This document shows, in pieces, positions 20,655 through 36,745 of a stretch of 64,000 nucleotides of DNA. The notes below the pieces were generated by a model, which saw only the letters and a list, made by a program, of their open reading frames with translations, searched no databases and was not told the DNA's origin. The position numbers were made by a program, and so were the translations under genes. The stretch's first letter is position 1. Each line of letters opens with the position of its first letter. The stretch lies in the IMG/VR virus record IMGVR_UViG_3300005536_000001. One strand, 5' to 3'. This DNA comes from a virus.

Positions 20655-20704
20655 GTCCTCATCAGCGTGAGACTTACTCACGGACGCCTCCCGGCGTTTC
20701 GGAC
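20655..20704 (-). ncRNA. type II hammerhead ribozyme, copy A (50 nt)
   Basis: Minus strand: GUCC-GAAAC-GCC-GGGA-GGC-GUC|CGUGAG-UAAGU-CUCACG-CUGAUGA-GGAC. All core nucleotides present. Predicted cleavage between 20683 and 20682. Confidence 0.85.
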
Positions 20705-20710
20705 TGTAAC

Positions 20711-20965
20711 CTACGGGTACTTCTTGCCGATCTCGTATTGCGTAGCGACAGCGAACGACACGCACTTCTTCTTGAACCGATCGGACGCCTTGGTGCGCTC
20801 GCCCTGATCGATCACAAGCAGCCACTCGGTCTTCGCACAGTTGAACACCTGCGGAACGCCCGAGCGCGCGTCATGCTTTTCGATCACGACGCCTGTCACC
20901 GCTTTTGCACAGCCGGCAAGAGCCATCGCGATGATGACAGCGGTGTACATAACTCGTAAGTGCAC
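20711..20965 (-). CDS. lipoprotein
   Basis: 84 aa. GTG start after AGGAGAG. Signal peptide with lipobox LAGC. C-terminus YEIGKKYP is paralogous to the next lipoprotein. Confidence 0.65.
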   Translation of the reverse strand: MHLRVMYTAVIIAMALAGCAKAVTGVVIEKHDARSGVPQVFNCAKTEWLLVIDQGERTKASDRFKKKCVSFAVATQYEIGKKYP

Positions 20966-21021
20966 TTACTCTCCTAGCTTGTCGAGCACGGATCGAGATG
21001 TCAGTGCAACTTCACGTGAAT

Positions 21022-21051
21022 GGGTCGCCGCCACGGATGTGACGGCGACCC
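21022..21051 (-). terminator. hairpin GGGTCGCCG / CGGCGACCC
   Basis: 9-11 bp GC-rich stem directly after the stop of 21058..21291. Confidence 0.5.
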
Positions 21052-21057
21052 ACTTCA

Positions 21058-21291
21058 TCAGCCCCTGTACACGTCACCGATCTTGTACTTGTCGTACGTT
21101 GCCTGGGTCACGCAGACGACCATCTCGCCTGCGTCGCCCGTCTTGGTGAACATGATGAACGGCGTGTCACCCGAGCAGAGCGCTTCGTTGACCGCGCCCT
21201 TCTTGTCAGTGACGTGCGTACGAGTACCCTCGCAGGCAGTGACGCTTGCCAGCGCGGCAATGACCGCGAGTCCAGTGAGGAAAACCTTCAC
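21058..21291 (-). CDS. lipoprotein
   Basis: 77 aa. Signal peptide MKVFLTGLAVIAALASVTAC (lipobox VTAC). C-terminus YKIGDVYRG. Confidence 0.65.
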   Translation of the reverse strand: MKVFLTGLAVIAALASVTACEGTRTHVTDKKGAVNEALCSGDTPFIMFTKTGDAGEMVVCVTQATYDKYKIGDVYRG

Positions 21292-21329
21292 CGAATACCA
21301 CTCCTTGTTTTGGTTTCGCTTACAAGGTA

Positions 21330-21358
21330 ATCTTATCAGGACCCAAGTCGTTATGCAA
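21330..21358 (-). promoter_or_regulatory. promoter TTGCAT-17-TAAGAT
   Basis: Minus-strand read. Member of the repeated early promoter family. Confidence 0.6.
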
Positions 21359-21366
21359 ACAACGCC

Positions 21367-21780
21367 TCAGTCCTCCGAGAAGACGACGTGGTCCATTCCT
21401 TCCCAGTTGTCCACGCCCGCGGCTTCCATGGCCGTCAGACGAGCGTCACGCCGGCGCCACTCCTTGACCTGTTCGGCGCTGACGTACACGCTGTCCCCGG
21501 TCGTGAGGCGCCTGTATGACTGCTCGACCAAGCGCAGCGTCAGCAGCTCTTCATCGTTGGCTAGTGTCCTCACACCCATGTCAGAGAGCGTGTTGGCCCT
21601 GCCGCCGGCAAGCCTCGTCAGCTGGTCGCTCGCCCACTCGGCGAGATCAATGGTCGCAGCCACGGCCTCACTCGGGTAGAAGCGATAGTTATCACAACCG
21701 CGTTCAATGGTGCGCTCCATCCGCACGCTCCCCTCTGCGTGGCCATTCGACTCCACGATCAGCGTGACCTTCACGGACAT
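21367..21780 (-). CDS. hypothetical protein
   Basis: 137 aa ORF. RBS GGGAGA. Confidence 0.6.
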   Translation of the reverse strand: MSVKVTLIVESNGHAEGSVRMERTIERGCDNYRFYPSEAVAATIDLAEWASDQLTRLAGGRANTLSDMGVRTLANDEELLTLRLVEQSYRRLTTGDSVYVSAEQVKEWRRRDARLTAMEAAGVDNWEGMDHVVFSED

Positions 21781-21791
21781 GATATCTCCCT

Positions 21792-21841
21792 GGACTCGTC
21801 AGGACACGCATCACGTGTCGACCCCTCCCGGGGTTTCGTCC
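21792..21841 (-). ncRNA. type II hammerhead ribozyme, copy B (50 nt)
   Basis: GGAC-GAAAC-CCC-GGGA-GGG-GUC|GACACG-UGAUG-CGUGUC-CUGACGA-GUCC. N7 is C, which the consensus allows. Cleavage between 21820 and 21819. Confidence 0.85.
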
Positions 21842-21843
21842 TT

Positions 21844-22185
21844 TCAGTCGAGGTAACCCATTGCTTGGAGCACATCGCCGATGCCAGGCTCTCGTTCGAC
21901 CTCAACGCCATCTTCTTCGATGATCGTGTTGTCCACCTGCGCACGTAGCTCACGAAGCTCTCGACTGAGCCTCGCACGCTCAGCACGCAGCTCGTAGATG
22001 TCCTCGATGAGTGCCGGCACGTCATCGAGCAAACGAATGAGATCGTTTGCCCGGTTCGATGCATCACGCGCGAGGATGTGTGGCACCGCGCGAAAGAGCA
22101 TGCGCCGCACTCGTGCTTCATCACTGAACTTCGAGACCACGCGCTCGTGTCGGGCGAGGATCTTTCTGATATGCGTGCCTTTCAC
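21844..22185 (-). CDS. hypothetical coiled-coil protein
   Basis: 113 aa. GTG start overlaps the upstream stop (GTGA). Confidence 0.6.
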   Translation of the reverse strand: MKGTHIRKILARHERVVSKFSDEARVRRMLFRAVPHILARDASNRANDLIRLLDDVPALIEDIYELRAERARLSRELRELRAQVDNTIIEEDGVEVEREPGIGDVLQAMGYLD

Positions 22186-22571
22186 TCGCCCTCCTCATTC
22201 TTCTCTTCCGCGGATCGCTCCACGTGGAACACGAGGCGTTGCGCAGCACCAGGCTGGCACACCGGGTCGTTGGCGAGGAAGTCGGCGAACTCATCCGGAC
22301 CGAAGACACCCGACATGAACGTGATGTCAGGCGACGTCTCATCGATCCAGTCGCCGTCATGGTGCATGAATGCACCATCACCAAGCCGATGCATTCCAGC
22401 GTGGTTGATTTTACCGGTCATCAGCCAGTAATGCGACCATCCATCACTGTACACCAGGTACGAGCCCGGCGGGACGAGGACCGCAGCGCCGTCGTTGCTC
22501 GTCGAAGTAGGGTCGAGGCTGTACGTGCGAGGAAAGAGCACATCGACCGTGCCGATCTGCGTAGTGCCCAT
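22182..22571 (-). CDS. hypothetical protein
   Basis: 129 aa. ATG overlaps the upstream stop (TAATG). Confidence 0.6.
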   Translation of the reverse strand: MGTTQIGTVDVLFPRTYSLDPTSTSNDGAAVLVPPGSYLVYSDGWSHYWLMTGKINHAGMHRLGDGAFMHHDGDWIDETSPDITFMSGVFGPDEFADFLANDPVCQPGAAQRLVFHVERSAEEKNEEGE

Positions 22572-23026
22572 TACTCGCCCCCGCCAATCAGCTCGACGAG
22601 CTGCGCGATGGCGTCGATTAGTTCATCACGACAACCGGACAATTCCTCGTCCGCTTCTTCCATCGCGTTTTCGGTGCGGGTGACCTCGCTGTCAAGCTCT
22701 TCGAATTCGTCACTCTCGCTATCACCGTCGAACTCTTCACGTGCTTCGTTCGCCGAGTCGAATTCGTCGGACGCGGTGTCAGCGCTTTCCACCGCCGTGG
22801 CAACATCATCGCACTTGCCACTCATCTCGTGGACGTACTCTGTGAGATCATCGATGAGCGCGCGCAACGGAACCACGATCTCAGTCTCGATCTCGGAGAC
22901 ACGCGCCTCAAGCGCTTCCCTCGTCTCGAATCCATCGCCCGTGGGCAAGTCCTTGCCCAAGCCCGTGGTCAGTTCCACACGCGCTTTCTTCAGGATTTCG
23001 ATGAAGGTTTCCGCAACATCGGTCAT
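22571..23026 (-). CDS. highly acidic hypothetical protein
   Basis: 151 aa, rich in D/E. Confidence 0.6.
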   Translation of the reverse strand: MTDVAETFIEILKKARVELTTGLGKDLPTGDGFETREALEARVSEIETEIVVPLRALIDDLTEYVHEMSGKCDDVATAVESADTASDEFDSANEAREEFDGDSESDEFEELDSEVTRTENAMEEADEELSGCRDELIDAIAQLVELIGGGE

Positions 23027-23044
23027 CAGTCTATCCTCACTCTT

Positions 23045-23094
23045 GGCCTCATCAGGCAGCGCGTCACGCTGCGACGTCTCCCGACGTTTCGGCC
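23045..23094 (-). ncRNA. type II hammerhead ribozyme, copy C (50 nt)
   Basis: GGCC-GAAAC-GUC-GGGA-GAC-GUC|GCAGCG-UGACG-CGCUGC-CUGAUGA-GGCC. Cleavage between 23073 and 23072. Confidence 0.85.
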
Positions 23095-23099
23095 TTCAG

Positions 23100-23183
23100 T
23101 TATCGACCACCACATCCCGCGTGACCGCAGCCACCGCAGAAACCGCCGTTACAGCATTCACAACCACATCCGCCATGAATCAT
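23100..23183 (-). CDS. 27 aa Cys/Gly-rich micro-protein
   Basis: MIHGGCGCECCNGGFCGGCGHAGCGGR. RBS AGGAGAG-N4-ATG. The stop lies 5 nt before hammerhead C. Below the ORF-track cutoff. Confidence 0.45.
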   Translation of the reverse strand: MIHGGCGCECCNGGFCGGCGHAGCGGR

Positions 23184-23199
23184 TGCGCTCTCCTAGTGC

Positions 23200-23682
23200 T
23201 CACTTGATCAGTTCAAACCAGACATCCACGGGCGAACCGACGAGGGTCCAGCGGGTGCTCAAGATGTGGCCGGGGCTGCACGCGCACATCGAGCAGCCGG
23301 CCTTCGACGAGAAGTGCATGGTTGGCGGGTCGATGCCAAGTCGGCCAAGCCCGTACGCGTGAAGGAGTGCGATCGGCTCGATGAGCGCCAACTTCACGTC
23401 CTTCAGCGCCTTCGCCTTGAGCGCTCGGTATGCCTTCATGTGCGCGTCGCGCTCGTCTTCGGTGAAGCCGTCACCGTCGCCCCACGCAGGCTTACACGCG
23501 TTCTCGTAGATCTTTTCTTCGAGATCAGGTGCGAACGTAGTGATGGCGCCATACACTCGGGTCAGCGAATTCCAGTGACGATCAGTGTCATGCACTCGCT
23601 TGACGATGATGGCTTTCCAGTCACCCTTGCTGATTTCGGTGCGTCGCGGGTCAACGGCCCGCACGTGCACGTCGTTCTTCAT
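23200..23682 (-). CDS. hypothetical protein
   Basis: 160 aa ORF. Confidence 0.6.
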   Translation of the reverse strand: MKNDVHVRAVDPRRTEISKGDWKAIIVKRVHDTDRHWNSLTRVYGAITTFAPDLEEKIYENACKPAWGDGDGFTEDERDAHMKAYRALKAKALKDVKLALIEPIALLHAYGLGRLGIDPPTMHFSSKAGCSMCACSPGHILSTRWTLVGSPVDVWFELIK

Positions 23683-23696
23683 GCTCTCCTCTTTCC

Positions 23697-23746
23697 GGCC
23701 TCATCAGTGCCAGCATCACTGGCAGACTCCTCACGGAGTTTCGGCC
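23697..23746 (-). ncRNA. type II hammerhead ribozyme, copy D (50 nt)
   Basis: GGCC-GAAAC-UCC-GUGA-GGA-GUC|UGCCAG-UGAUG-CUGGCA-CUGAUGA-GGCC. Cleavage between 23725 and 23724. Confidence 0.85.
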
Positions 23747-23752
23747 TTACAT

Positions 23753-23938
23753 TCAGCACCACTCACTGACCCAGCGTACTTCTTCACGCCTACGAATTGC
23801 GCGACGAATGAGACGCTTGCCACTCTTACCGGACCCCCCACGCGACTTGAAACCACGGTACTCGTAAAAGCCATCGCTAAGATGCGGGTTGTCGACGTGG
23901 AGCGTGCCACGATTGCGTTCGCTTGCCATCATCCCCAT
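23753..23938 (-). CDS. 61 aa basic hypothetical protein
   Basis: ORF 23753..24040 trimmed to the ATG at 23938, which follows GAGGAG. The N-terminal extension in the track runs through ribozyme E. Confidence 0.5.
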   Translation of the reverse strand: MGMMASERNRGTLHVDNPHLSDGFYEYRGFKSRGGSGKSGKRLIRRAIRRREEVRWVSEWC

Positions 23939-23954
23939 GATATTCTCCTCACGT

Positions 23955-24004
23955 GGGCTCATCAGCAGCGGCATCACCGCTGGACACCTCTCGGTGTTTC
24001 GCCC
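23955..24004 (-). ncRNA. type II hammerhead ribozyme, copy E (50 nt)
   Basis: GGGC-GAAAC-ACC-GAGA-GGU-GUC|CAGCGG-UGAUG-CCGCUG-CUGAUGA-GCCC. Cleavage between 23983 and 23982. Confidence 0.85.
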
Positions 24005-24014
24005 TGCACGACCA

Positions 24015-24290
24015 TCAAACCGTAATGCCCATCGACGCAAGCTCGGCCGCGTAACGCTTCGTGAGCTCCGTGTTGATCACCCGGCCGATTTCCCGGGCGC
24101 TCGTTCCACTCGTCGCCGCCAGCTGCTTGATCGCGGTGAACATACCCGCGACCTGCTCGTACATCTCTTCATCACGGCTCACAGTGTGAATCCCGAACTC
24201 GGTCGCCCGCTTGAGCGTGTCAGCCGGGATGTGGTCGAGAGCGGCGAACTGGGCAAGCGAACGAGCATCGGTGTGGGTCGTGATGTCCAT
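24015..24290 (-). CDS. hypothetical protein
   Basis: 91 aa ORF. RBS GGAGAAT. Confidence 0.6.
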   Translation of the reverse strand: MDITTHTDARSLAQFAALDHIPADTLKRATEFGIHTVSRDEEMYEQVAGMFTAIKQLAATSGTSAREIGRVINTELTKRYAAELASMGITV

Positions 24291-24331
24291 GATATTCTCC
24301 GTTTTCGTTTTGCTGTTTTGCTTGTAAGACT

Positions 24332-24360
24332 ACAGTAACAGGCTACTGTGACTAATGCAA
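24332..24360 (-). promoter_or_regulatory. promoter TTGCAT-17-TACTGT
   Basis: Minus-strand read, followed by the conserved AGTCTTA leader. Confidence 0.6.
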
Positions 24361-24430
24361 ACAAGCAAGTCCCACGACTTCAGACATCCCCAGACAGTCA
24401 CACCCGGTTGACCACCAGCAACTACAACCC

Positions 24431-24470
24431 CTGGACCGCTCGGGCTCCCGTAAGAGACTGAGCGGTCCAG
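24431..24470 (-). terminator. hairpin CTGGACCGCTC / GAGCGGTCCAG (11 bp)
   Basis: Directly after the stop of 24478..24666 and upstream of the promoter. Confidence 0.5.
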
Positions 24471-24477
24471 AGGGTAC

Positions 24478-24666
24478 TCAGCGCCACCCGCGGTTGCGGT
24501 AACGACAGTTCTCTTCAGCGTCTTCTCTTGACGTGAACGTGCGCTTCGTGAATGATGCTTGTTCGCCACGAAGATACTTCACGTACTCGCTACGCGCCAC
24601 AACGAGGAGCGCACTCGTGTAGTTTCCCTCGGCATCGGGCTCAAGAATCATCCACGGAGCGTTCAC
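24478..24666 (-). CDS. hypothetical protein
   Basis: 62 aa ORF. Confidence 0.5.
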   Translation of the reverse strand: MNAPWMILEPDAEGNYTSALLVVARSEYVKYLRGEQASFTKRTFTSREDAEENCRYRNRGWR

Positions 24667-24686
24667 GTTCGATCACCACCTATGCG

Positions 24687-24785
24687 TCACTTTTTCTTTG
24701 ATGTCCCGAGAGCGATGAGTGCGGCCACCACCAGCACGATGACAACGATCCCGCCCTTTTGCTCGTTTCCCCACTGGAACAGCAC
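24687..24785 (-). CDS. 32 aa single-pass membrane micro-protein (tentative)
   Basis: VLFQWGNEQKGGIVVIVLVVAALIALGTSKKK. GTG start with no clear RBS. Confidence 0.25.
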   Translation of the reverse strand: MLFQWGNEQKGGIVVIVLVVAALIALGTSKKK

Positions 24786-24796
24786 CTGGGATAAAA

Positions 24797-24991
24797 TCAC
24801 GAGTCGATCACCGCGCCACCCTCGCCCTCCCAGGCATCATGATTGACTTCATCGAACGTGTGAGCAATGAAATCATCCGACGTGGGGCCGTGCTGGTTTC
24901 GTCGCGCCGGCCGACGCAATCCCGCGGTGATGTCAGCGAGGTGATCCGGATGCGTGGGTGTGGAGAGATCGTACATGTGCTGATCGTTCAC
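24797..24991 (-). CDS. hypothetical protein
   Basis: 64 aa ORF. GTG overlaps the upstream stop (GTGA). Confidence 0.5.
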   Translation of the reverse strand: MNDQHMYDLSTPTHPDHLADITAGLRRPARRNQHGPTSDDFIAHTFDEVNHDAWEGEGGAVIDS

Positions 24992-25104
24992 GGCTTCCTC
25001 CGATTCCGAAGCCAGACAACACCTACGATCGTGAGACCGACAACAGCGAAGAACGCCACGTCAGGCCACGATGTGGGGTGATACTCGAAAGAACTCATTT
25101 CCAT
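24988..25104 (-). CDS. 38 aa single-pass membrane micro-protein
   Basis: MEMSSFEYHPTSWPDVAFFAVVGLTIVGVVWLRNRRKP. ATG overlaps the upstream stop. Confidence 0.4.
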   Translation of the reverse strand: MEMSSFEYHPTSWPDVAFFAVVGLTIVGVVWLRNRRKP

Positions 25105-25214
25105 CCGTTCTTGTCGAAAAGCTTGAAGATGACGACGATGACGACGATGATAATGACAACGCCAAGCCCTTGTGATGCCGGAGAGCTTTGGCTGTCTTCG
25201 ATGACCGTGTTCAT
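25095..25214 (-). CDS. 39 aa single-pass membrane micro-protein
   Basis: MNTVIEDSQSSPASQGLGVVIIIVVIVVIFKLFDKNGWK. ATGA overlap with the upstream stop. Confidence 0.4.
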   Translation of the reverse strand: MNTVIEDSQSSPASQGLGVVIIIVVIVVIFKLFDKNGWK

Positions 25215-25327
25215 TTCTTCTTCCCCACGAGAGCCGCAACGACGAGAAGCGCGGCGAGGATGAGCACGAAAGAACCGATCCCATTCAGTGCGGTCGGCTG
25301 TTGGCCCTGTGCGATGAATGCGATCAC
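25211..25327 (-). CDS. 38 aa single-pass membrane micro-protein
   Basis: VIAFIAQGQQPTALNGIGSFVLILAALLVVAALVGKKK. GTGA overlap with the upstream stop. Confidence 0.4.
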   Translation of the reverse strand: MIAFIAQGQQPTALNGIGSFVLILAALLVVAALVGKKK

Positions 25328-26068: not shown

Positions 26069-26074
26069 AATCTT

Positions 26075-30915: not shown

Positions 30916-31317
30916 TCACTTATCTTTGAAGAAGTCGGTGACAGTTTGCCCGTCGATGGAGCCTGCCTGAATCAGCGGGCCGTTCACCTCGCCGTTGACG
31001 ACGTTGTGCACGCCCCCCTGGACATGCTCACGCTTCACCGGCGCCGGGCTGGGCTTGATCGCGAAGTCCAGTGGGAGAGTGCTTGCCACCACCTTGTGCT
31101 CACCCGCGGCGAACCACACAGTGAAGCCACCCGGGCGAACCTGATCGCGTAACGTACACGTCGCCTTACGCTGGTTCGATCCTGCAGTGGGGTGCTCGAT
31201 GTGATGGATGCGTACCCACGCACGACCATGCTTCACAAGCATGCCCGCAGCAAGCTCACGCTGCTGGACCTTGACCTTTCGTTCGAACACGCTCTCCTCG
31301 ATTCCTAGGGGTCTCAT
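30916..31317 (-). CDS. hypothetical protein (start uncertain)
   Basis: ORF 30916..31347. The ATG at 31317 lies inside the ribozyme-like CCGAUGA box. Alternative in-frame GTG at 31290 follows GAGGAGAG. Confidence 0.5.
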   Translation of the reverse strand: MRPLGIEESVFERKVKVQQRELAAGMLVKHGRAWVRIHHIEHPTAGSNQRKATCTLRDQVRPGGFTVWFAAGEHKVVASTLPLDFAIKPSPAPVKREHVQGGVHNVVNGEVNGPLIQAGSIDGQTVTDFFKDK

Positions 31318-31364
31318 CGGGCCGGTCTCTTTCCCGGCGACGCCCACGTGCAGGCGTTTCGACC
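31310..31364 (-). ncRNA. hammerhead-like element, copy F (core variant CCGAUGA)
   Basis: GGUC-GAAAC-GCC-(8 nt)-GGC-GUC|GCCGG-(8 nt)-CCGGC-CCGAUGA-GACC. Same architecture as the other copies but with U4 changed to C. Possibly a weak or decayed copy. Confidence 0.4.
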
Positions 31365-31428
31365 AGTTAACGAGTATCCTACCACGTGCATTTCATTCGG
31401 TGAGGAAGGCGACATCGGCCGCCCTCAC

Positions 31429-31748: not shown

Positions 31749-31757
31749 ATCGTGAAA

Positions 31758-31976: not shown

Positions 31977-32013
31977 CGTGCTCTCCTAACGATCAAGTCG
32001 TTGTGTTAAGACT

Positions 32014-32043
32014 ATTGTATCAGGAAAGCGTGATCTAGTCGAA
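32014..32043 (-). promoter_or_regulatory. promoter TTCGAC-18-TACAAT
   Basis: Minus-strand read. The -35 box overlaps the stop of the upstream gene. Confidence 0.45.
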
Positions 32044-32262
32044 CGAAATGATGACCATCCCGCCGTATGCGATGCTCTTGAGCGTGTAGTCACTCAGGTC
32101 AATATTCATGTCGGCGGCACGGTCGTACGCGTACGCGACGAACGCAGTAAACCCGTCGTCGATGTCCCACGGCATCTTCTCGAAGTCGACCTTCATCACC
32201 AATGAGAAGATGTTGCTGTAGTCGTTCTCAAACACGAGAACGTACGGGGACGTGTTCTTCAT
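32035..32262 (-). CDS. hypothetical protein
   Basis: ORF 32035..32274 (TTG) trimmed to the ATG at 32262, which follows GGAGG and overlaps the upstream stop (TGATG). Confidence 0.55.
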   Translation of the reverse strand: MKNTSPYVLVFENDYSNIFSLVMKVDFEKMPWDIDDGFTAFVAYAYDRAADMNIDLSDYTLKSIAYGGMVIISFD

Positions 32263-32492
32263 CAGAACCTCCAAATCGTCTTTCCATTGCGCGTGATGCA
32301 GTACGCCGAGTACCCGTCAAGCTTGATCTCTGGCTGGTTCGCCGCGACGAGCGCACGCGCGAAGTCAACGATCGCGTTGGCGTGCTCGTCGATGTCGGCC
32401 GGATTCGCCGGGTGGTCAGTCGGCACAAGCGTTTCGAACGCCGGGTTGGTGTCCTTGCGGAACGTGACGTTGTATCGGTACGTGGTGGGCAT
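32262..32492 (-). CDS. hypothetical protein
   Basis: 76 aa. RBS AGGAGAG-N4-ATG. Confidence 0.55.
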   Translation of the reverse strand: MPTTYRYNVTFRKDTNPAFETLVPTDHPANPADIDEHANAIVDFARALVAANQPEIKLDGYSAYCITRNGKTIWRF

Positions 32493-32536
32493 GTTGCTCT
32501 CCTAGGTCACGTGCGAAAGTCCTTCTACTCCCACAA

Positions 32537-32562
32537 GCCGCCACGCACGAATGCGTGACGGC
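32537..32562 (-). terminator. hairpin GCCGCCACGCA-CGAA-TGCGTGACGGC
   Basis: 11 bp with one mismatch and a tetraloop. Lies after the stop of 32582..32821. Confidence 0.45.
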
Positions 32563-32581
32563 GAGGGGAGCGTGTTGTGTG

Positions 32582-32821
32582 CTAGGCCGACGTGATGCGC
32601 GAGATCACTTCGTTCGCGTCACCCGTGTCGAGAGCGTAACGGTTGGCCACGATGACGAGGTCCTCCCGCGTGCCGGTGAACTTGATCTCGGGCCAACCAC
32701 CGGCCGCGTGAACGCCCGTGAAGTCGGCCGTCACATCAGTCTCGTGCACCAGCGCGTCAACCGCGTCGGTCACCTCTTCCTCGGGCCCGAAGCAAACGTC
32801 CAGGGTGAGTGCCTGCATCAT
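32582..32821 (-). CDS. hypothetical protein
   Basis: 79 aa. RBS AGGAGAG. Confidence 0.55.
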   Translation of the reverse strand: MMQALTLDVCFGPEEEVTDAVDALVHETDVTADFTGVHAAGGWPEIKFTGTREDLVIVANRYALDTGDANEVISRITSA

Positions 32822-32856
32822 GCTCTCCTTGTGCTCGTGATTTCGGTACTAAGACT

Positions 32857-32884
32857 ACAGTACTAGGCGACGTGATCAATGCAA
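32857..32884 (-). promoter_or_regulatory. promoter TTGCAT-16-TACTGT
   Basis: Minus-strand read, with the conserved AGTCTTAG leader. Confidence 0.6.
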
Positions 32885-32889
32885 ACGTG

Positions 32890-33075
32890 TCAGAAACTAC
32901 GTGATGTGCAGCGATCGTCGGCTGCCGAGCACGCCCAACACGGATCATCTTCCTCGCACCGCGTATCGACCTCGTTAGGCGTAACGATGTTCGACGTAGG
33001 TGTGGGAGTTTTCACTGGACGTTCGCACGCGCTCAACGCAAGTGCAAGTGCAATGATAACGAAAGCCTTGCGCAT
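32890..33075 (-). CDS. small lipoprotein
   Basis: 61 aa. MRKAFVIIALALALSAC (lipobox LSAC). Four further Cys residues. Confidence 0.6.
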   Translation of the reverse strand: MRKAFVIIALALALSACERPVKTPTPTSNIVTPNEVDTRCEEDDPCWACSAADDRCTSRSF

Positions 33076-33236
33076 CAGTGCGCTTTCTCCAAGTTCTTGA
33101 TTCGCTCAGCGATAACGAGTTCTGACTCTCGTCGTGCGAATTCAGCGAGCACACCCTCAAATGTGAAGTCACCCGCTGTCTGCTTCTCGTAGATCTCACG
33201 CAGCTTCGCAGCGTACTCAGTGATCAACTCGTCCAT
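33075..33236 (-). CDS. 53 aa hypothetical protein
   Basis: MDELITEYAAKLREIYEK... TGATG overlaps at both ends. Below the ORF-track cutoff. Confidence 0.45.
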   Translation of the reverse strand: MDELITEYAAKLREIYEKQTAGDFTFEGVLAEFARRESELVIAERIKNLEKAH

Positions 33237-33661
33237 CACTTGACCGCCTTCTTATTCGCTCGTATGGCCTTCTTCACGCAGTCGCCAGCCAACTCAACCA
33301 TCAGCTGCGCCGGACTCGCATACCCGTGGCACTCCGAGATCTCGGCGTCAAGCTGCATCAACACACGCTCGATTGCGGCGAGTCGAACGGCAATGTCATC
33401 AATCGTGCGTCGCCTCACTTCATCTGGGTCAGCCGGCGGCTTCATATCGATGATGGCGTCAACAACACCACGCTCGTGTTGGAGAAGCAGGACTGCCTCA
33501 TCCCAATCGTCAGTCTGAAGCAACACCGTGAACGTGATATGGATATCCTCAATCATACGATTGCGCAAGCGCTTGGGCTTTTCATCCGGTGCGAGCTGCT
33601 CGCTTGAATTGACCACACCTACGTAACCATCACTACGCTTATACACAAAGTACGCCATCAC
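33236..33661 (-). CDS. hypothetical protein
   Basis: 141 aa. RBS AGGAGAG-N4-ATG. Confidence 0.6.
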   Translation of the reverse strand: MMAYFVYKRSDGYVGVVNSSEQLAPDEKPKRLRNRMIEDIHITFTVLLQTDDWDEAVLLLQHERGVVDAIIDMKPPADPDEVRRRTIDDIAVRLAAIERVLMQLDAEISECHGYASPAQLMVELAGDCVKKAIRANKKAVK

Positions 33662-33735
33662 GCTCTCCTAAGTTCCGCAAGTTCGGGGACCCGGGCCCGT
33701 GGCGGTCCAGAGGGGACACCGGGTCGCTCAAGACA

Positions 33736-33764
33736 ATCATACCACACACGTGTCTGGTTGTCTA
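33736..33764 (-). promoter_or_regulatory. promoter TAGACA-17-TATGAT
   Basis: Minus-strand read. Followed by a GC-rich structured leader (GACCCGG...CCGGGUC). Confidence 0.5.
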
Positions 33765-33917
33765 GGTTAGCTGCACATACACCGTGCCGCCACCGGGCAT
33801 ACGCTTGAAGAAGCGTGCTGGGTTGTTGTACCATGATGCAGAGCGAGTCTCAGGCGTATGCACTGGGTGCTCACCACGAACATCGCACGTTGCGTCGTTG
33901 CACTGGTCTTCCATCAT
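33762..33917 (-). CDS. 51 aa hypothetical protein (tentative)
   Basis: MMEDQCNDATCDVRGEHPVH... The ATG is 6 nt after the upstream stop (TAAGGATGCATG). Confidence 0.3.
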   Translation of the reverse strand: MMEDQCNDATCDVRGEHPVHTPETRSASWYNNPARFFKRMPGGGTVYVQLT

Positions 33918-33923
33918 GCATCC

Positions 33924-34526
33924 TTACTCTCGTTGAAGAATGACACGTCCGAAGTAGATGTCACCCTGCTCAAGAATCTTGAACCCGTGATCGAGCAGGT
34001 AAGGCACAGCAGCACCACACTTGCCATTCCACCCGGGTCCGGTGGTGGGGTCAAGTACTGACGGCAGCACCCACGTGTCATCACATGCGACGATGCCACC
34101 TGGGATGACCCACGGCTCGACAAGCTTCGCAATGGTGAGGTGCGATGCACGACTTGCTTCACGCGAATATGCCTGCCCACGCGCGAGATACTCTCGCTCC
34201 TGGGCGTCCCACATGCCCTCGGTTGCGTGCTCGTAGGGCCAGTCATGGCCGTCAAGCCACGCAAAACCGATGGGCAAATCCCAGTGTTCAAGCACGTGCT
34301 CAGCACCACCAAGATATGCTGTCACGTTAGGAATCTGTCTCGCACGCTCCACCTGTGTCGGCTCCACGTCGATGACATGAACCGGTGGACCCACCCGTGA
34401 GAGAAACGTCGTGGAGCCGTCTCCCACCGAATCACGCTCGGCGCCGACCTCAAGAATGACGCTACTCGTCCCGTAATCCGTCTCGTACGAGACGTCAGTC
34501 GCTCGCTGATACCCGTTTGTTCCCAC
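33924..34526 (-). CDS. putative class I SAM-dependent methyltransferase
   Basis: 200 aa. VILEVGAERDSVGDGST (motif I-like), VHVIDVEP, GGIVACDD. GTG start. Confidence 0.45.
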   Translation of the reverse strand: MGTNGYQRATDVSYETDYGTSSVILEVGAERDSVGDGSTTFLSRVGPPVHVIDVEPTQVERARQIPNVTAYLGGAEHVLEHWDLPIGFAWLDGHDWPYEHATEGMWDAQEREYLARGQAYSREASRASHLTIAKLVEPWVIPGGIVACDDTWVLPSVLDPTTGPGWNGKCGAAVPYLLDHGFKILEQGDIYFGRVILQRE

Positions 34527-34533
34527 GCGGTCG

Positions 34534-34542
34534 ACTATATCA
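34534..34542 (-). promoter_or_regulatory. extended -10 promoter TGATATAGT; predicted leaderless transcript
   Basis: The -10 box ends 7 nt before the GTG at 34526. No -35 box and no RBS. Confidence 0.4.
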
Positions 34543-34543
34543 C

Positions 34544-34579
34544 AAAGGCCCCGGCCCTCCGAGAAGGAGGACCGAGGCC
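34544..34579 (-). terminator. intrinsic terminator (14 bp GC-rich stem plus U tract)
   Basis: Minus strand: GGCCUCGGUCCUCC-UUCUC-GGAGGGCCGGGGCC followed by UUUGUG. Confidence 0.7.
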
Positions 34580-34593
34580 TTCGTGCGTGTCAG

Positions 34594-34908
34594 TTAACAG
34601 CCGCAGCCGGTGTTCTTCGTCTTACCGCAGCGGTAACAGAACTTGTCTTGGGGATCGGGCATGGTGCTCTCCTTGTTTCCGTTGATCTCGTCGTCCATCT
34701 CACCGATCATCTTCGCGAGTACGGCGTGACGGCGAACCTGCACCATCATCAACTTCGTCACCGCAGAGATGAGGTGCGTGGTGCGAACCTCGACCGTGTC
34801 AATCTCGACACCGTCAAGATCGAACACCCGAATCGTCGATGTGCCCGTGATGTCACTCGGGTCGAAATCAATTCGACATAAGTGATGTCGAACACTGGCC
34901 ACAATCAT
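34594..34908 (-). CDS. hypothetical protein with C-terminal CxxC...CGC tail
   Basis: ORF 34594..34926. The track ATG is the AUG of the CUGAUGA box. ATG at 34908 or GTG at 34902 follows GGAGAGG. An internal AAGGAGAGCACCATG precedes the last 22 codons. Confidence 0.55.
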   Translation of the reverse strand: MIVASVRHHLCRIDFDPSDITGTSTIRVFDLDGVEIDTVEVRTTHLISAVTKLMMVQVRRHAVLAKMIGEMDDEINGNKESTMPDPQDKFCYRCGKTKNTGCGC

Positions 34909-34918
34909 CCTCTCCATC

Positions 34919-34980
34919 GGACTCATCAGCGTGCGCTTTACGCACGGACTACATCACCTCACGGTGGTGTAGTTTCGTCC
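34919..34980 (-). ncRNA. type II hammerhead ribozyme, copy G (62 nt)
   Basis: GGAC-GAAAC-UACACCACC-GUGA-GGUGAUGUA-GUC|CGUGCG-UAAAG-CGCACG-CUGAUGA-GUCC. Cleavage between 34947 and 34946. The 5' end abuts a TAG stop. Confidence 0.85.
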
Positions 34981-35156
34981 TAGTAATCTTCATCAATGAC
35001 GGTGATGAGCACCCTACCTGCATCTCCACCCGCTGATGCGATCACTGACTTAAGAACGTTAACCGCATCATTCCCATCAACACCCCACGCAGAAATCTCA
35101 TGCTGCGTGTTATCCTCACGCACAACCAGAAGAACATACTTCGTCGTAGGCATCAT
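34980..35156 (-). CDS. 58 aa hypothetical protein (cassette paralog 1)
   Basis: MMPTTKYVLLVVREDNTQHEISAWGVDGNDAVNVLKSVIASAGGDAGRVLITVIDEDY. RBS AGGAGAG. Bracketed by ribozymes H and G. Confidence 0.5.
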   Translation of the reverse strand: MMPTTKYVLLVVREDNTQHEISAWGVDGNDAVNVLKSVIASAGGDAGRVLITVIDEDY

Positions 35157-35171
35157 GCTCTCCTAACACCT

Positions 35172-35233
35172 GGACTCATCAGCGCGGCAGTAAGCCGCGG
35201 ACCACGTCATCTCCCGATGATGTAGTTTCGTCC
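35172..35233 (-). ncRNA. type II hammerhead ribozyme, copy H (62 nt)
   Basis: GGAC-GAAAC-UACAUCAUC-GGGA-GAUGACGUG-GUC|CGCGGC-UUACU-GCCGCG-CUGAUGA-GUCC. Cleavage between 35200 and 35199. Confidence 0.85.
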
Positions 35234-35406
35234 TAGTAGAGCGCGGCGGTGATCGACTTCACTGCCTCGTTGTTACCGTCAACTGCCTTGATGAAGTGTC
35301 GCACAGTGTCGATGGCGTCATCCTCACTCTCCGCGAAAACGAAAAACTCGTGACTGGCACCGAACGCACCGGTGACAATATTCACCATGTACTTACGATT
35401 CATCAT
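35233..35406 (-). CDS. 57 aa hypothetical protein (cassette paralog 2)
   Basis: MMNRKYMVNIVTGAFGASHEFFVFAESEDDAIDTVRHFIKAVDGNNEAVKSITAALY. RBS AGGAGAG. Bracketed by ribozymes I and H. Confidence 0.5.
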   Translation of the reverse strand: MMNRKYMVNIVTGAFGASHEFFVFAESEDDAIDTVRHFIKAVDGNNEAVKSITAALY

Positions 35407-35423
35407 GCTCTCCTAAACTCTCT

Positions 35424-35486
35424 GGACTCATCAGCATGGCAGCGAGCCATGGACCTGCGTCACCTCCCGGCAATGCGGTTTCGTCC
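35424..35486 (-). ncRNA. type II hammerhead ribozyme, copy I (63 nt)
   Basis: GGAC-GAAAC-CGCAUUGCC-GGGA-GGUGACGCAG-GUC|CAUGGC-UCGCU-GCCAUG-CUGAUGA-GUCC. Cleavage between 35452 and 35451. Confidence 0.8.
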
Positions 35487-35659
35487 TAGCCGTCGATGTC
35501 GACCATCACGTCGTACACGTTCCTGGTGTCGCCACCGAAGGCCTTGGCCATACGCGTCACGACGGCGACCGCAGCTTCCCGGCTCTCAGCGCGCGTGAAC
35601 ACCTCGATTGGCTCGTCGTGCTGGGTAACGAAGATGTGGAGTACGTAGCGCTCGCTCAT
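35486..35659 (-). CDS. 57 aa hypothetical protein (cassette paralog 3)
   Basis: ORF 35486..35722 trimmed to the ATG at 35659, which follows AAGGAGAG. Sequence MSERYVLHIFVTQHDEPIEVFTRAESREAAVAVVTRMAKAFGGDTRNVYDVMVDIDG. Confidence 0.55.
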   Translation of the reverse strand: MSERYVLHIFVTQHDEPIEVFTRAESREAAVAVVTRMAKAFGGDTRNVYDVMVDIDG

Positions 35660-35708
35660 GATTCTCTCCTTGTGTCCTGCACCCGGGCTGTTTTCCGGTG
35701 CTAAGACT

Positions 35709-35738
35709 ACAGTATCAAGCAATCATACGTATGTACAA
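35709..35738 (-). promoter_or_regulatory. promoter TTGTAC-18-TACTGT
   Basis: Minus-strand read, with the conserved AGTCTTAGCACCG leader. Confidence 0.55.
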
Positions 35739-35759
35739 CACAACTTGTGTGAACTTACG

Positions 35760-35933
35760 TCACTTGCCCGGCCTGAGCACCTCCGCCAACACCAGGGCGT
35801 AGAACTGCTCGGACCCCGGTTCGACGCTCGCGTGGATGTCTGAGACAGCCTGTTCGGCCCACGCAGCGAGGTTGGCTCGCAGACCAAGAGGATCATCACC
35901 GATCCAGAGAAGCAACTGGTCACGACTTGACAT
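35760..35933 (-). CDS. 57 aa hypothetical protein (LLxW(I/V)GDD...FYALVLE family)
   Basis: ORF 35760..35963 trimmed to the ATG at 35933. Paralog of 35920..36117. Confidence 0.5.
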   Translation of the reverse strand: MSSRDQLLLWIGDDPLGLRANLAAWAEQAVSDIHASVEPGSEQFYALVLAEVLRPGK

Positions 35934-36117
35934 CTTCGCCACTATCATCACCCCCAAGCACACGCTCGAGAACGAGTGCGTAAAAGCCCTCGCTTCGGTA
36001 CGGCACCGTGCACGTGTCCATGATGAAAATCATCGCGCCGTAAGCAATGTGCTTACGCGAGGTGTCATCACCTACCCAGGCGAGAAGTCGCTCCCGATTT
36101 TTCAGCTTCTCCATCAT
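35920..36117 (-). CDS. hypothetical protein (LLAWVGDD...FYALVLE family)
   Basis: 65 aa ORF. ATG overlaps the upstream stop. Confidence 0.55.
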   Translation of the reverse strand: MMEKLKNRERLLAWVGDDTSRKHIAYGAMIFIMDTCTVPYRSEGFYALVLERVLGGDDSGEDVKS

Positions 36118-36200
36118 CGCCTCCGTGCGCGTCGTACGAGTGCGATCATGATACCCACACTCGAGCCAACGAGTAGCACTGTCCAGAGGATGTTACCCAT
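36114..36200 (-). CDS. 28 aa single-pass membrane micro-protein
   Basis: MGNILWTVLLVGSSVGIMIALVRRARRR. Stop overlaps the next start (ATGATG). Confidence 0.35.
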   Translation of the reverse strand: MGNILWTVLLVGSSVGIMIALVRRARRR

Positions 36201-36208
36201 CAGCCCCG

Positions 36209-36439
36209 TCACCGTTGCCACTTCCCGTGTGTAACACCCTGGTCCAGTGCAACGACAAGAGACCGAATGATGCTGGGCTCATCTGCCTCAGACACCCTCG
36301 GAGCTAGCTTCCGTCCGGCGGTAACAATACCCGTCAGAAAGTCGCGCGACGCCGCGTCGGGCGCAATCAGAAGCGCTGAGCGCAGTAGAAGGTTGGTCGC
36401 AACGCGGAGCGATTCCTTCGGAGCAGGCTTGTTGACCAT
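36209..36439 (-). CDS. hypothetical protein
   Basis: ORF 36209..36466 trimmed to the ATG at 36439, which follows GGGAGAA. The track extension runs into ribozyme J. Confidence 0.55.
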   Translation of the reverse strand: MVNKPAPKESLRVATNLLLRSALLIAPDAASRDFLTGIVTAGRKLAPRVSEADEPSIIRSLVVALDQGVTHGKWQR

Positions 36440-36452
36440 ACGTTCTCCCTCT

Positions 36453-36514
36453 GGACTCGTCAGCACGGGCCTTACCCGTGGACGCGAACGCTTCCCAGCG
36501 TGCGCGTTTCGTCC
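36453..36514 (-). ncRNA. type II hammerhead ribozyme, copy J (62 nt)
   Basis: GGAC-GAAAC-GCGCACGC-UGGGAA-GCGUUCGC-GUC|CACGGG-UAAGG-CCCGUG-CUGACGA-GUCC. Cleavage between 36481 and 36480. Confidence 0.85.
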
Positions 36515-36527
36515 TTAGCCTAGGCTA

Positions 36528-36668
36528 CTAGTACCAGCCCTGCCCTGAGCAGGTGTTGCACTCGTCGCCATCGGGGCTGACGCCCGAGCCACCGCAGTCA
36601 GGACACTTCTTCTTCGGACTGTGTAGTCCCAGTGCCACAGGCAGGGTCAGCACGTTCTCAGGAATCAT
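36528..36668 (-). CDS. 46 aa DnaJ-type zinc-finger micro-protein
   Basis: MIPENVLTLPVALGLHSPKKKCPDCGGSGVSPDGDECNTCSGQGWY (CxxCxGxG twice). RBS GAGGAGAG. Bracketed by ribozymes K and J. Confidence 0.5.
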   Translation of the reverse strand: MIPENVLTLPVALGLHSPKKKCPDCGGSGVSPDGDECNTCSGQGWY

Positions 36669-36685
36669 CTTGCTCTCCTCACATC

Positions 36686-36745
36686 GGACTCATCAGTGCG
36701 GGCTTCACCCGCAGACCCGCTGCCTCACGACTGTGGGTTTCGTCC
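36686..36745 (-). ncRNA. type II hammerhead ribozyme, copy K (60 nt)
   Basis: GGAC-GAAAC-CCACAGUC-GUGA-GGCAGCGG-GUC|UGCGGG-UGAAG-CCCGCA-CUGAUGA-GUCC. Stem III is imperfect. Cleavage between 36714 and 36713. Confidence 0.75.

What the first reader, a model, noticed from the sequence alone, without database searches (positions are those of the whole stretch)
20655..36745. Ten canonical type II hammerhead ribozymes, plus one core variant, occupy intergenic spacers of the early operons
Read on the transcribed (minus) strand, eleven spacers share one pattern: 5'-NNNC GAAAC [stem III capped by a GNRA loop] GUC / [stem I, 5-8 nt loop] CUGAUGA GNNN-3'.

Ten copies contain every invariant hammerhead core nucleotide (C3 U4 G5 A6 N7 G8 A9, G12 A13 A14, the A15.1-U16.1 pair, and a GUC cleavage triplet). 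The two ends pair as a 4 bp stem II (GGAC/GUCC, GGCC/GGCC, GGGC/GCCC), which is type II topology.

The helices covary while the core stays fixed. Stem I, for example, is CGUGAG/CUCACG, GACACG/CGUGUC, GCAGCG/CGCUGC, UGCCAG/CUGGCA, CAGCGG/CCGCUG, CGUGCG/CGCACG, CGCGGC/GCCGCG, CAUGGC/GCCAUG, CACGGG/CCCGUG or UGCGGG/CCCGCA.

Five copies (20655, 21792, 23045, 23697, 23955) are exactly 50 nt. Five (34919, 35172, 35424, 36453, 36686) are 60-63 nt with a longer stem III. The copy at 31310 has CCGAUGA in place of CUGAUGA.

Each element begins 0-10 nt after the upstream stop codon and ends 3-20 nt before the next RBS. Cleavage would therefore cut the polycistron into single-gene mRNAs, each ending in the stem III hairpin and beginning with the stem I hairpin and a 5'-OH. 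This density of ribozymes acting as gene separators in a phage-like genome is, as far as I know, undescribed or at least very unusual.
Basis: partly seen in the sequence, partly recalled or inferred. Interest (0 to 1): 0.92.

Follow-up and report, generated by a model that had tools for sequence, protein, structure and literature searches.

The report
Hammerhead ribozymes between phage genes
Eleven small self-cutting RNA motifs (type II hammerhead ribozymes) really do sit between small genes of this uncultivated phage, but such arrays between phage genes were described in 2011 and turn out to be common in viral metagenomes.

Summary
Exactly eleven elements on the minus strand (20655-36745) have the hammerhead core, with closed stems I and III and an open 4-bp stem II (type II). 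Ten are canonical; the copy at 31310 has U4C.

Support:
- Helices covary strongly: 96.6% of cells paired, 15 of 21 pairs with double changes, 0 of 500 shuffles as good.
- Ten of eleven fold into the three-way junction as the minimum-energy structure.
- A covariance model built only from other phages finds the same eleven (42-63 bits) and nothing else above 16 bits.
- In a related 93-kb IMG/VR phage, six copies sit at orthologous junctions. They are 85-100% identical, against about 50-70% for most flanks, with compensatory stem changes.

The novelty claim fails.
- Perreault et al. 2011 described clustered hammerheads flanking single genes in prophages and showed cleavage in vitro.
- My scans found this subclass in at least 120 viral contigs (arrays of 5-7 per 1.4-6 kb) and 68 bacterial genome stretches.
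- 79% of 126 copies lie between an ORF stop and a Shine-Dalgarno/start, against 6% of controls.

Most likely function, which is inferred: cutting co-directional transcripts into gene-sized mRNAs whose new ends each carry a hairpin.

All copies score below Rfam's gathering threshold because they lack the usual type II pseudoknot.

Verdict: a new member of a known kind, of moderate interest.

The parts
36686..36745 (-). Type II hammerhead, 60 nt, long stem III. Stem II GGAC/GUCC, stem I UGCGGG/CCCGCA. Predicted cut 36714/36713.
   Evidence: R1 63.6 bits; R2 60.3 bits. MFE is the three-way junction. Ortholog L123:4146 has compensatory stem I changes.
36453..36514 (-). Type II hammerhead, 62 nt, core CUGACGA. 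Predicted cut 36481/36480.
   Evidence: Ortholog L123:4339 is 96.8% identical, against 49-54% for the flanks.
35424..35486 (-). Type II hammerhead, 63 nt. Its first base is the G of the upstream UAG stop. Predicted cut 35452/35451.
35172..35233 (-). Type II hammerhead, 62 nt, part of a 253-nt tandem unit of gene plus ribozyme. Predicted cut 35200/35199.
34919..34980 (-). Type II hammerhead, 62 nt, part of a 253-nt tandem unit. Predicted cut 34947/34946.
31310..31364 (-). Type II hammerhead with core variant U4C (CCGAUGA) and an 8-nt loop I. Its cleavage competence is uncertain.
   Evidence: Not used to train R1, yet scores 35 bits; R2 42.4 bits. MFE is the three-way junction. Ortholog L123:9059 keeps U4C (CCGAAGA) although the genes on either side (the 33-aa ORF 31415..31314, 77-aa 31662..31429 and 124-aa 31290..30916) have no tblastn hit in L123. 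U4C recurs in L049, L057 and L072.
23955..24004 (-). Type II hammerhead, 50 nt, stem II GGGC/GCCC. Predicted cut 23983/23982.
   Evidence: (Rfam RF02276, 24.9 bits).
23697..23746 (-). Type II hammerhead, 50 nt, stem II GGCC/GGCC. Predicted cut 23725/23724.
   Evidence: (Rfam RF02276, 27.6 bits, the best Rfam score).
23045..23094 (-). Type II hammerhead, 50 nt. Predicted cut 23073/23072.
   Evidence: The MFE is an alternative fold, the only one of the eleven. In ortholog L123:16504 stem I is entirely replaced but still paired.
21792..21841 (-). Type II hammerhead, 50 nt, core CUGACGA. It lies directly upstream of a gene with a T7 gp5.9-like RecBCD-inhibitor domain. Predicted cut 21820/21819.
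   Evidence: Ortholog L123:17383 differs by one compensatory A-U to G-C change.
20655..20704 (-). Type II hammerhead, 50 nt, stem II GUCC/GGAC. It lies upstream of an HNH-domain gene. Predicted cut 20683/20682.
   Evidence: Ortholog L123:18668 is 50/50 identical, against 53-65% for the flanks.

Best explanation
The eleven elements are genuine type II hammerhead self-cleaving ribozymes, encoded in the spacers of co-directionally transcribed small accessory or host-takeover genes of an uncultivated tailed phage.

When a spacer is transcribed, three parts fold: stem III (capped by a GNRA loop), stem I (6 bp with a 5-nt U-N-A-N-G/U loop) and the open 4-bp stem II. The core then cuts after C17 of the GUC triplet.

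Because the topology is type II, each product keeps a terminal hairpin.
- The upstream mRNA ends 22-35 nt past the start of the ribozyme, so its stop codon stays intact. It ends in the stem III hairpin with a 2',3'-cyclic phosphate.
- The downstream mRNA starts with a 5'-OH on the stem I hairpin. It is followed by CUGANGA, 4 nt, and then a Shine-Dalgarno sequence 1-11 nt further on.

The result would be gene-length mRNAs with standardised, insulated 5' leaders and protected ends. Stability and translation of neighbouring cistrons would be uncoupled.

Shown here: the motif, its covariation, its conservation at orthologous junctions, and its stop/RBS placement. Inferred: cleavage in vivo, and its effect on stability and translation.

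The U4C copy is probably slow or conditionally active.
For: - Core and helices: all invariant core positions are present in 10 of 11 copies. 96.6% of cells are paired, 15 of 21 pairs show double changes, and all six stem I pairs covary. 0 of 500 shuffles match this, and slid controls give 27-41% paired.
- Fold: the MFE is the three-way junction in 10 of 11.
- Independent model: R2, built from other phages only, recovers exactly these eleven.
- Orthologs: in IMGVR_UViG_3300043344_000002, six copies lie at syntenic junctions. They are 85-100% identical, against 49-71% for 11 of 12 200-nt flanks, with compensatory changes.
- Placement: all eleven lie in minus-strand intergenic spacers next to a Shine-Dalgarno sequence. 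In 126 independent IMG/VR copies, 100 lie between an ORF stop and an SD/start, against 43 of 710 controls.
- Candidate tertiary-contact nucleotides are conserved across phages: A at -1 of stem II in 142 of 148, loop I position 1 is U in 70 of 72, and position 3 is A in 54 of 72.
- Literature: tandem prophage hammerheads cleave in vitro and in E. coli (PMC3088659). Three type II hammerheads near phage genes cleave in vivo in Desulfovibrio vulgaris (PMC8782182).
Against: - No cleavage data exist for these sequences.
- None reaches Rfam's RF02276 gathering score (best 27.6 against 37).
- They lack the loop I/3'-tail pseudoknot that gives fast cleavage in most type II examples. Activity at physiological Mg2+ therefore rests on an untested alternative contact.
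- The upstream stop codon abuts or overlaps stem II, so a terminating ribosome would unfold the ribozyme. Cleavage may be partial or depend on translation.
- Several promoter-like sites lie within the region, so the transcripts may be shorter than one long polycistron.
- The field still regards the biological role of phage hammerheads as unresolved (PMC6765202, PMC6155905).
Confidence: 0.8

Rival explanations
1. The ribozymes mark the boundaries of modular gene cassettes. Cleavage at two neighbouring copies releases a gene-length RNA. Its ends (5'-OH stem I ... stem III-C17>p) can be brought together by stem II pairing between the two half-ribozymes. The ends are then ligated, by the hammerhead's reverse reaction or by RtcB, to give a circular mRNA. 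Alternatively, the repeats act as recombination junctions through which cassettes are gained, lost and duplicated.
For: - All five upstream-cluster copies share stem II GGAC/GUCC, so neighbouring half-ribozymes are compatible.
- Three tandem 253-nt units of a paralogous 57-58 aa gene plus a ribozyme are present.
- The relative's copy L123:6402 is a chimera of the 5' half of HH35172 and the 3' half of HH34919. The switch lies within GUCCG around the scissile bond, so the missing gene is exactly the RNA-level excision unit.
- Ribozymes are conserved islands next to non-homologous genes.
Against: - In the downstream cluster, neighbouring stem II halves are mostly incompatible (2-3 of 4 pairs), by my own comparison of the sequences.
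- GGAC/GUCC is simply the most common stem II of the class, although that count is biased by my search pattern.
- The chimera is a single case and is equally explained by ordinary homologous crossover between 78%-identical repeats.
- Perreault et al. looked for spliced or circular products and found none.
- No reverse transcriptase was noticed in the window.
Confidence: 0.1
2. Cleavage is not constitutive but works as a translation-sensitive switch. A ribosome terminating at the stop codon that abuts or overlaps stem II keeps the ribozyme unfolded. The transcript would then be cut mainly when the upstream gene is poorly translated.
For: - Stop-to-ribozyme distance is -1 to 13 nt for ten window copies.
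- It is -2 to 13 nt for 103 of the 115 IMG/VR copies that have a nearby upstream stop (126 copies examined), and 28 of them overlap the ribozyme by 1-2 nt.
- A ribosome footprint reaches about 12-15 nt past the A site (general knowledge).
Against: Tight spacing is normal in compact phage genomes. The A at -1 is conserved even where no stop codon is adjacent. There are no experimental data.
Confidence: 0.07
3. The elements are non-catalytic repeated hairpin modules, such as nuclease or protein binding sites, terminators or REP-like repeats, that only resemble hammerheads.
For: They score below Rfam gathering. One copy has a core substitution. No activity data exist.
Against: - Thirteen unpaired core nucleotides are invariant in ten copies and in about 140 copies from unrelated phages, while all helices covary. 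That pattern is not expected of a mere hairpin.
- No U-tract follows the hairpins.
- Close analogues cleave in vitro and in vivo.
Confidence: 0.03

Closest known systems
Type II hammerhead ribozymes of bacteria and prophages (Perreault et al. 2011, PMC3088659; Rfam RF02276 Hammerhead_II)
   Same: - Same catalytic core, including the G10.1-C11.1 and A15.1-U16.1 pairs and the GUC triplet.
[quoted passage not shown]
- An unpaired A precedes stem II, as in the Rfam consensus.
- Phage-associated intergenic context.
   Different: - There is no loop I/3'-tail Watson-Crick pseudoknot, so scores are 20.8-27.6 bits against the cut-off of 37.
- Stem II is exactly 4 bp and cannot be extended in 141 of 148 copies.
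- Loop I is a 5-nt U-N-A-N-G motif.
Clustered hammerheads flanking single genes in prophages: Agrobacterium tumefaciens (around ardA), Azorhizobium caulinodans, Clostridium scindens (Perreault 2011, Figure 3, S1, S2)
   Same: Several co-oriented ribozymes separate small, poorly conserved or anti-defence genes. Processing of polycistronic RNA into gene-length mRNAs was proposed there, and cleavage was shown in vitro and, for A. tumefaciens, in E. coli. Here one flanked gene carries a T7 gp5.9-like RecBCD-inhibitor domain.
   Different: The tested arrangements had three copies. This window has eleven, in two clusters of five plus one singleton. This is a free phage-like genome rather than an annotated prophage.
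Three type II hammerheads of Desulfovibrio vulgaris, detected by cyPhyRNA-seq (Olzog et al. 2021, PMC8782182)
   Same: Type II topology, next to hypothetical and phage-like genes, with two copies about 300 nt apart. In vivo 2',3'-cP and 5'-OH ends were demonstrated.
   Different: Those are Rfam-predicted copies of 68-70 nt in a bacterial chromosome. Their sequences were not compared here.
Loop-loop tertiary contact of type I/III hammerheads (sTRSV, Schistosoma; reviewed in PMC6155905)
   Same: Helix I is about 6 bp and helix II is 4 bp. The conserved U in loop I and the conserved A just outside stem II sit where the conserved reverse-Hoogsteen U:A pair of loop 1 and loop 2 would lie. The mapping is my inference; the conservation comes.
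   Different: Here 'loop 2' is open: the A at -1 and the purine at +1 belong to the flanking mRNA. No structure or mutational test exists.
Synthetic ribozyme insulators such as RiboJ
   Same: A hammerhead placed directly 5' of the RBS cleaves off upstream RNA and leaves a hairpin-led, standardised leader.
   Different: RiboJ is an engineered sTRSV-derived type III ribozyme with an added hairpin. The elements here are natural and type II, and also leave a hairpin on the upstream fragment.

Membership tests
Hammerhead ribozyme (class) | Conserved core C3 U4 G5 A6 N7 G8 A9, G12 A13 A14, and H17 at the cleavage site | tested here: met
   Invariant in 10 of 11 copies. The copy at 31310 has U4C, as does its ortholog.
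Hammerhead ribozyme (class) | Pairs adjacent to the core are intact: A15.1-U16.1, N10.1-N11.1 and N1.1-N2.1 (acceptance rule of Perreault 2011, Methods) | tested here: met
   A-U 10/10; C11.1-G10.1 10/10; 1.1-2.1 paired 10/10 as CG, GC or UA. All three also hold in 31310.
Hammerhead ribozyme (class) | Three helices around the core, supported by covariation | tested here: met
   21 pairs, 96.6% of cells paired, 15 pairs with double changes, 0 of 500 shuffles as good, slid controls 27-41%. Compensatory changes are also seen between orthologs.
Hammerhead ribozyme (class) | Site-specific self-cleavage giving 2',3'-cyclic phosphate and 5'-OH ends | not testable with these tools
   Needs in vitro transcription or end-specific RNA-seq.
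Type II topology | Stems I and III closed by loops; stem II formed by the 5' and 3' ends | tested here: met
   The MFE structures of 10 of 11 show exactly this; see also the alignment.
Rfam RF02276 Hammerhead_II | Score at or above the curated gathering threshold (37 bits) | tested here: not met
   No hit at gathering. Best scores are 27.6, 24.9 and 20.8 bits for 23697, 23955 and 23045; the other copies are not reported as type II. This is an operational cut-off of one model, not a defining property of the ribozyme class.
Rfam RF02276 / Perreault type II consensus | Pseudoknot of 4 or more bp between loop I and the 3' tail after stem II | tested here: not met
   Across 137 copies, complementarity of 4 or more bp occurs in 9, against 19.6 expected from permuted partners. 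No consistent pairing is seen in the window copies.
Natural fast-cleaving hammerheads | A tertiary contact between stem I and stem II elements | tested here: inconclusive
   A at -1 is conserved in 142 of 148 copies, and loop I reads U-N-A-N-G. These are candidates for a loop-loop-type contact, but no structural or mutational test was possible.
Clustered phage/prophage hammerhead arrangement | Several co-oriented copies flanking single genes or short gene blocks in a phage genome | tested here: met
   All eleven copies are on the minus strand, between small ORFs. Phage identity is shown by portal, terminase, primase and polymerase hits.

The most novel reading that the evidence does not exclude
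The ribozyme-bounded genes are modular cassettes whose RNA excision boundaries coincide with their DNA gain/loss boundaries. Evidence: the chimeric ribozyme in the relative, with its switch at the scissile bond, and tandem 253-nt gene-plus-ribozyme units. On this reading the hammerheads either generate circular, exonuclease-resistant mRNAs, by pairing half-ribozymes across a gene, or serve as junctions for cassette shuffling of anti-defence genes.
Probability: 0.1. Interest if true: 0.75.

Novelty: new member of a known kind. Interest (0 to 1): 0.35.

Why it matters
The biological role of bacterial and phage hammerheads is still called an open question (PMC6155905, PMC6765202).

This genome and its 93-kb relative form a compact comparative system. 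It has eleven and at least eight copies, six at orthologous junctions, and a conserved U4C variant. The processing or insulator hypothesis could be tested on it.

There is also a practical point. This pseudoknot-less subclass is common: at least 120 viral contigs and 68 bacterial genome stretches carry one stem II variant alone. Yet it falls below Rfam's gathering score, so routine annotation misses it.

It does not change what is known in kind.

Tried and rejected
- **Rfam at gathering threshold:** only a tRNA was found. In E-value mode there were three sub-threshold type II hits and two Hammerhead_3 hits. One of the type III hits spans 36721-36501 with a 170-nt insertion in stem II. It pairs the 3' half of one copy with the 5' half of the next. 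I rejected it as the primary fold because its stem III is poor and each spacer forms a complete ribozyme on its own.
- **First pattern:** my first search pattern assumed the wrong order of the halves and found nothing.
- **Cultured relatives:** megablast of the region against GenBank phages found none. Primase tblastn gave under 30% identity to actinophages, so the host is unknown.
- **tblastn against the first IMG/VR loci:** window proteins against the 120 ribozyme-bearing loci showed that none is a relative. The motif is shared across unrelated phages.
- **Further relatives:** The search for related loci with the 160-aa protein found nothing.
- **A twelfth candidate:** 22730-22751, at 14-16 bits, is only GAAC-GAAG...GUUC inside a gene, so I rejected it.
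- **Gene annotation:** PHROGs and Pfam on ten flanked genes returned only a gp5.9-like domain and families of unknown function.
- **Pseudoknot test:** negative.
- **Literature since 2012:** no study of ribozyme arrays in phages beyond the papers cited.

Full report

Yes. On the minus strand, the eleven stated spacers each contain the following pattern:

5'-[4 nt]-GAAA-[hairpin]-U-C-[6-bp hairpin with a 5-nt loop]-CUGANGA-[4 nt complementary to the first 4]-3'

- Five copies are exactly 50 nt. Five are 60-63 nt with a longer stem III. The copy at 31310-31364 reads CCGAUGA.
- Two copies (21792, 36453) read CUGACGA. This is still consensus because position 7 is free.
- A strict pattern gives 8 matches against 0.12 expected by chance.

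**2. Is it a hammerhead?**

- *Alignment and covariation.* The ten canonical copies align with all core positions invariant. On the three-helix structure, 96.6% of cells form standard pairs. 15 of 21 pairs have changes on both sides, and all six stem I pairs covary with no mispair. None of 500 column shuffles reaches these values, and sliding the partners by 1-3 columns drops pairing to 27-41%.
- *Fold.* Ten of eleven adopt the three-way junction as their minimum-free-energy structure. 23045 has a competing fold.
- *Model R1.* A covariance model from the ten copies, run without filters over all 64 kb, returns the ten plus the untrained 31310 copy (35 bits, E 5.6e-9). The next hit scores 14 bits.
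- *Model R2.* To avoid circularity I built a second model from 142 copies found in other viral contigs. It finds the same eleven at 42-63 bits, with the next hit at 15.7 bits. That next hit is a chance GAAC...GUUC inside a gene.
- *Rfam.* Rfam does not call the elements. There is nothing at gathering score, and only 27.6, 24.9 and 20.8 bits against 37 for three copies in E-value mode. The reason is structural: the Rfam type II consensus includes a loop I/3'-tail pseudoknot. This subclass lacks it, with 4-bp complementarity in 9 of 137 copies against 19.6 expected.

**3. Context**

- *Genome.* The window is a tailed-phage genome. It has portal, large terminase, a head-morphogenesis protein, primase, DNA polymerase and helicase. 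It has no cultured relative.
- *Position.* The eleven elements lie in spacers of a long run of small minus-strand ORFs between the replication and structural modules.
- *Spacing.* The upstream stop is -1 to 13 nt away for ten copies. In three of these the stop is UAG|GAC, overlapping stem II. For 31310 the distance is 64 nt. The next Shine-Dalgarno sequence follows 1-11 nt after the element.
- *Flanked genes.* They are mostly ORFans. The gene after HH21792 has a T7 gp5.9-like RecBCD-inhibitor domain (Pfam PF25708, 38.3 bits). The gene after HH20655 has an HNH domain. This fits an early or host-takeover role but does not prove timing.
- *Transcription.* The region also holds promoter-like sites. 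Four are TTTACA-17-TAnnnT sites at 37081-38459. A five-copy repeat, GTTTGCATTAGT...TACTGTAGTCTTAGCACCG, lies at 24363, 32888, 35740, 38744 and 39127. Transcription therefore probably comes in several units rather than one long polycistron.

**4. Relatives**

A 93-kb IMG/VR contig, IMGVR_UViG_3300043344_000002, is a true relative, with its primase 80% identical. In the 20 kb I could read (L123) it has eight copies.

Six sit at junctions orthologous to 36686, 36453, 31310, 23045, 21792 and 20655. They are 85-100% identical in nucleotides. The 200-nt flanks are 49-71% identical, with one exception.

| Window copy | Ortholog in L123 | Difference |
|---|---|---|
| HH20655 | L123:18668 | none (50/50 identical) |
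| HH21792 | L123:17383 | one compensatory A-U to G-C change |
| HH23045 | L123:16504 | entirely different but still paired stem I |
| HH36686 | L123:4146 | two compensatory changes in stem I |
| HH31310 | L123:9059 | U4C variant kept (CCGAAGA), although the adjacent genes have no hit in the relative |

U4C also recurs in three unrelated contigs. This is purifying selection on the RNA structure and core.

**5. How common is this?**

It also occurs in 68 stretches of bacterial genomes from many phyla.
- In the 80 loci I scanned there are 142 copies, always co-oriented within a locus. Arrays reach 7 in 5.7-6.0 kb (L045, L076), 6 in 4.3 kb (L001) and 5 in 1.4 kb (L012). None of these phages is related to the window.
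- Of 126 copies with enough flank, 115 follow an ORF stop and 109 precede an SD/start/ORF within 60 nt. 100 do both, against 43 of 710 random control positions.
- Shared subclass features that my pattern did not impose:
  - A at position -1 in 142 of 148 copies;
  - stem II not extendable in 141 of 148;
  - loop I reads U-N-A-N-G, with U in 70 of 72, A in 54 of 72 and G in 50 of 72.
- These map onto the positions of the loop 1/loop 2 reverse-Hoogsteen contact of type I/III hammerheads (PMC6155905). That mapping is my inference.

**6. Mechanism**

The most likely account is co- or post-transcriptional self-cleavage after C17. The type II topology gives both products a terminal hairpin.

- The upstream mRNA keeps its stop codon and ends in the stem III hairpin with a cyclic phosphate.
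- The downstream mRNA begins with a 5'-OH on the stem I hairpin and a short fixed leader before its Shine-Dalgarno sequence.

This would uncouple the stability and translation of neighbouring genes, like a natural ribozyme insulator. The motif, its selection and its placement are shown. Cleavage and its consequences are inferred, supported by published activity of analogous elements:
- in vitro and in E. coli (PMC3088659);
- in vivo in D. vulgaris (PMC8782182).

One caveat: a ribosome terminating at the abutting stop codon would unfold stem II, so cleavage could be sensitive to translation.

**7. Comparison with what is known, and novelty**

- Perreault et al. [quoted passage not shown] - The 2017 and 2019 reviews repeat this and call the function an open question.
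- Eleven copies in one genome is on the high side of what I saw. The density per kilobase is matched elsewhere.
- The modest new points are these. The subclass lacks a pseudoknot and scores below Rfam's threshold. It has conserved flanking and loop nucleotides. The stop/RBS placement is now quantified. The U4C variant is conserved.

**8. Most novel reading not excluded**

The relative's copy L123:6402 is a chimera. Its 5' half matches HH35172 with one difference, and its 3' half matches HH34919 with one difference. The switch lies within GUCCG around the scissile bond.

The gene missing in the relative is therefore exactly the unit that two cleavages would excise. The window also carries three tandem 253-nt units of a paralogous gene plus a ribozyme.

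This could mean cassette shuffling at the ribozymes, or circular mRNAs. It is a single case, ordinary crossover between repeats explains it equally well, and circular products were sought without success in 2011. I give it about 10%.

Noticed in passing
L123:6402-6463 compared with window 35172-35233 and 34919-34980: The relative's ribozyme is a chimera of the 5' half of HH35172 and the 3' half of HH34919. The switch lies within GUCCG at the scissile bond. The 58-aa gene 35156..34980 is therefore an indel bounded exactly by the two RNA cleavage sites.
   Followed up: partly
window 34981-35739 (minus strand): Three tandem 253-nt units, each a paralogous 57-58 aa ORF. The second and third units each begin with a hammerhead (HH35424, HH35172), the third gene is followed by HH34919, and the first unit begins with a promoter-like repeat instead. 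Units are 54-62% identical to each other.
   Followed up: partly
window minus strand, about 24363-24314, 32888-32839, 35740-35691, 38744-38695, 39127-39078: A second intergenic repeat family, GTTTGCATTAGT..GATTGCCT.GTACTGTAGTCTTAGCACCGAAAA. It looks like a phage promoter (TTGCAT, 16 nt, TAYTGT) with a conserved initial transcribed region. One copy lies just upstream of the 24004-20655 ribozyme cluster and one lies inside the upstream cluster.
   Followed up: partly
window 37053-38459 (minus strand): Four sigma-70-like sites, TTTACA-17-TAnnnT with an extended TG, at 37081, 37795, 38176 and 38459. Two strong terminator-like hairpins lie at 38503-38460 and 39158-39131. Together they suggest a series of short early transcription units upstream of the ribozymes.
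   Followed up: no
stem III of window 34919, 35172, 35424, 36453, 36686, and of L123:4146, 4339, 6402: Every long stem III carries a single internal mismatch (A.C, C.A, C.U or C.C) at about the fifth to seventh pair from the core. It is kept between orthologs. The reason is unknown.
   Followed up: no
window 54766-54838 (+): A single tRNA gene is called tRNA-Asn with the unusual anticodon ATT (A34) by ARAGORN. Rfam scores it 57.7 bits as a tRNA.
   Followed up: no
window 1447-5538 (-): A 1363-aa protein with an N-terminal head-morphogenesis/minor-head domain and a C-terminal ADP-ribosyltransferase toxin-like domain (phrog_3895, residues 1237-1343). It may be a virion-delivered ADP-ribosyltransferase.
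   Followed up: no
window 11164-12378 (-): A UDP-glucose dehydrogenase homolog (phrog_9148, E 6e-65) lies just downstream of the terminase gene, in the direction of transcription.
   Followed up: no
window 23100-23183 (-): A 27-aa Cys/Gly-rich ORF (MIHGGCGCECCNGGFCGGCGHAGCGGR) with a good Shine-Dalgarno sequence fills most of the 105-nt gap before HH23045. It may be a real micropeptide or may be spurious.
   Followed up: no
L049:3272-3322, L057:541-602, L072:3930-3984: Independent phage contigs also carry otherwise well-formed type II hammerheads with U4C (CCGANGA). This suggests a recurrent tolerated or functional core variant.
   Followed up: partly
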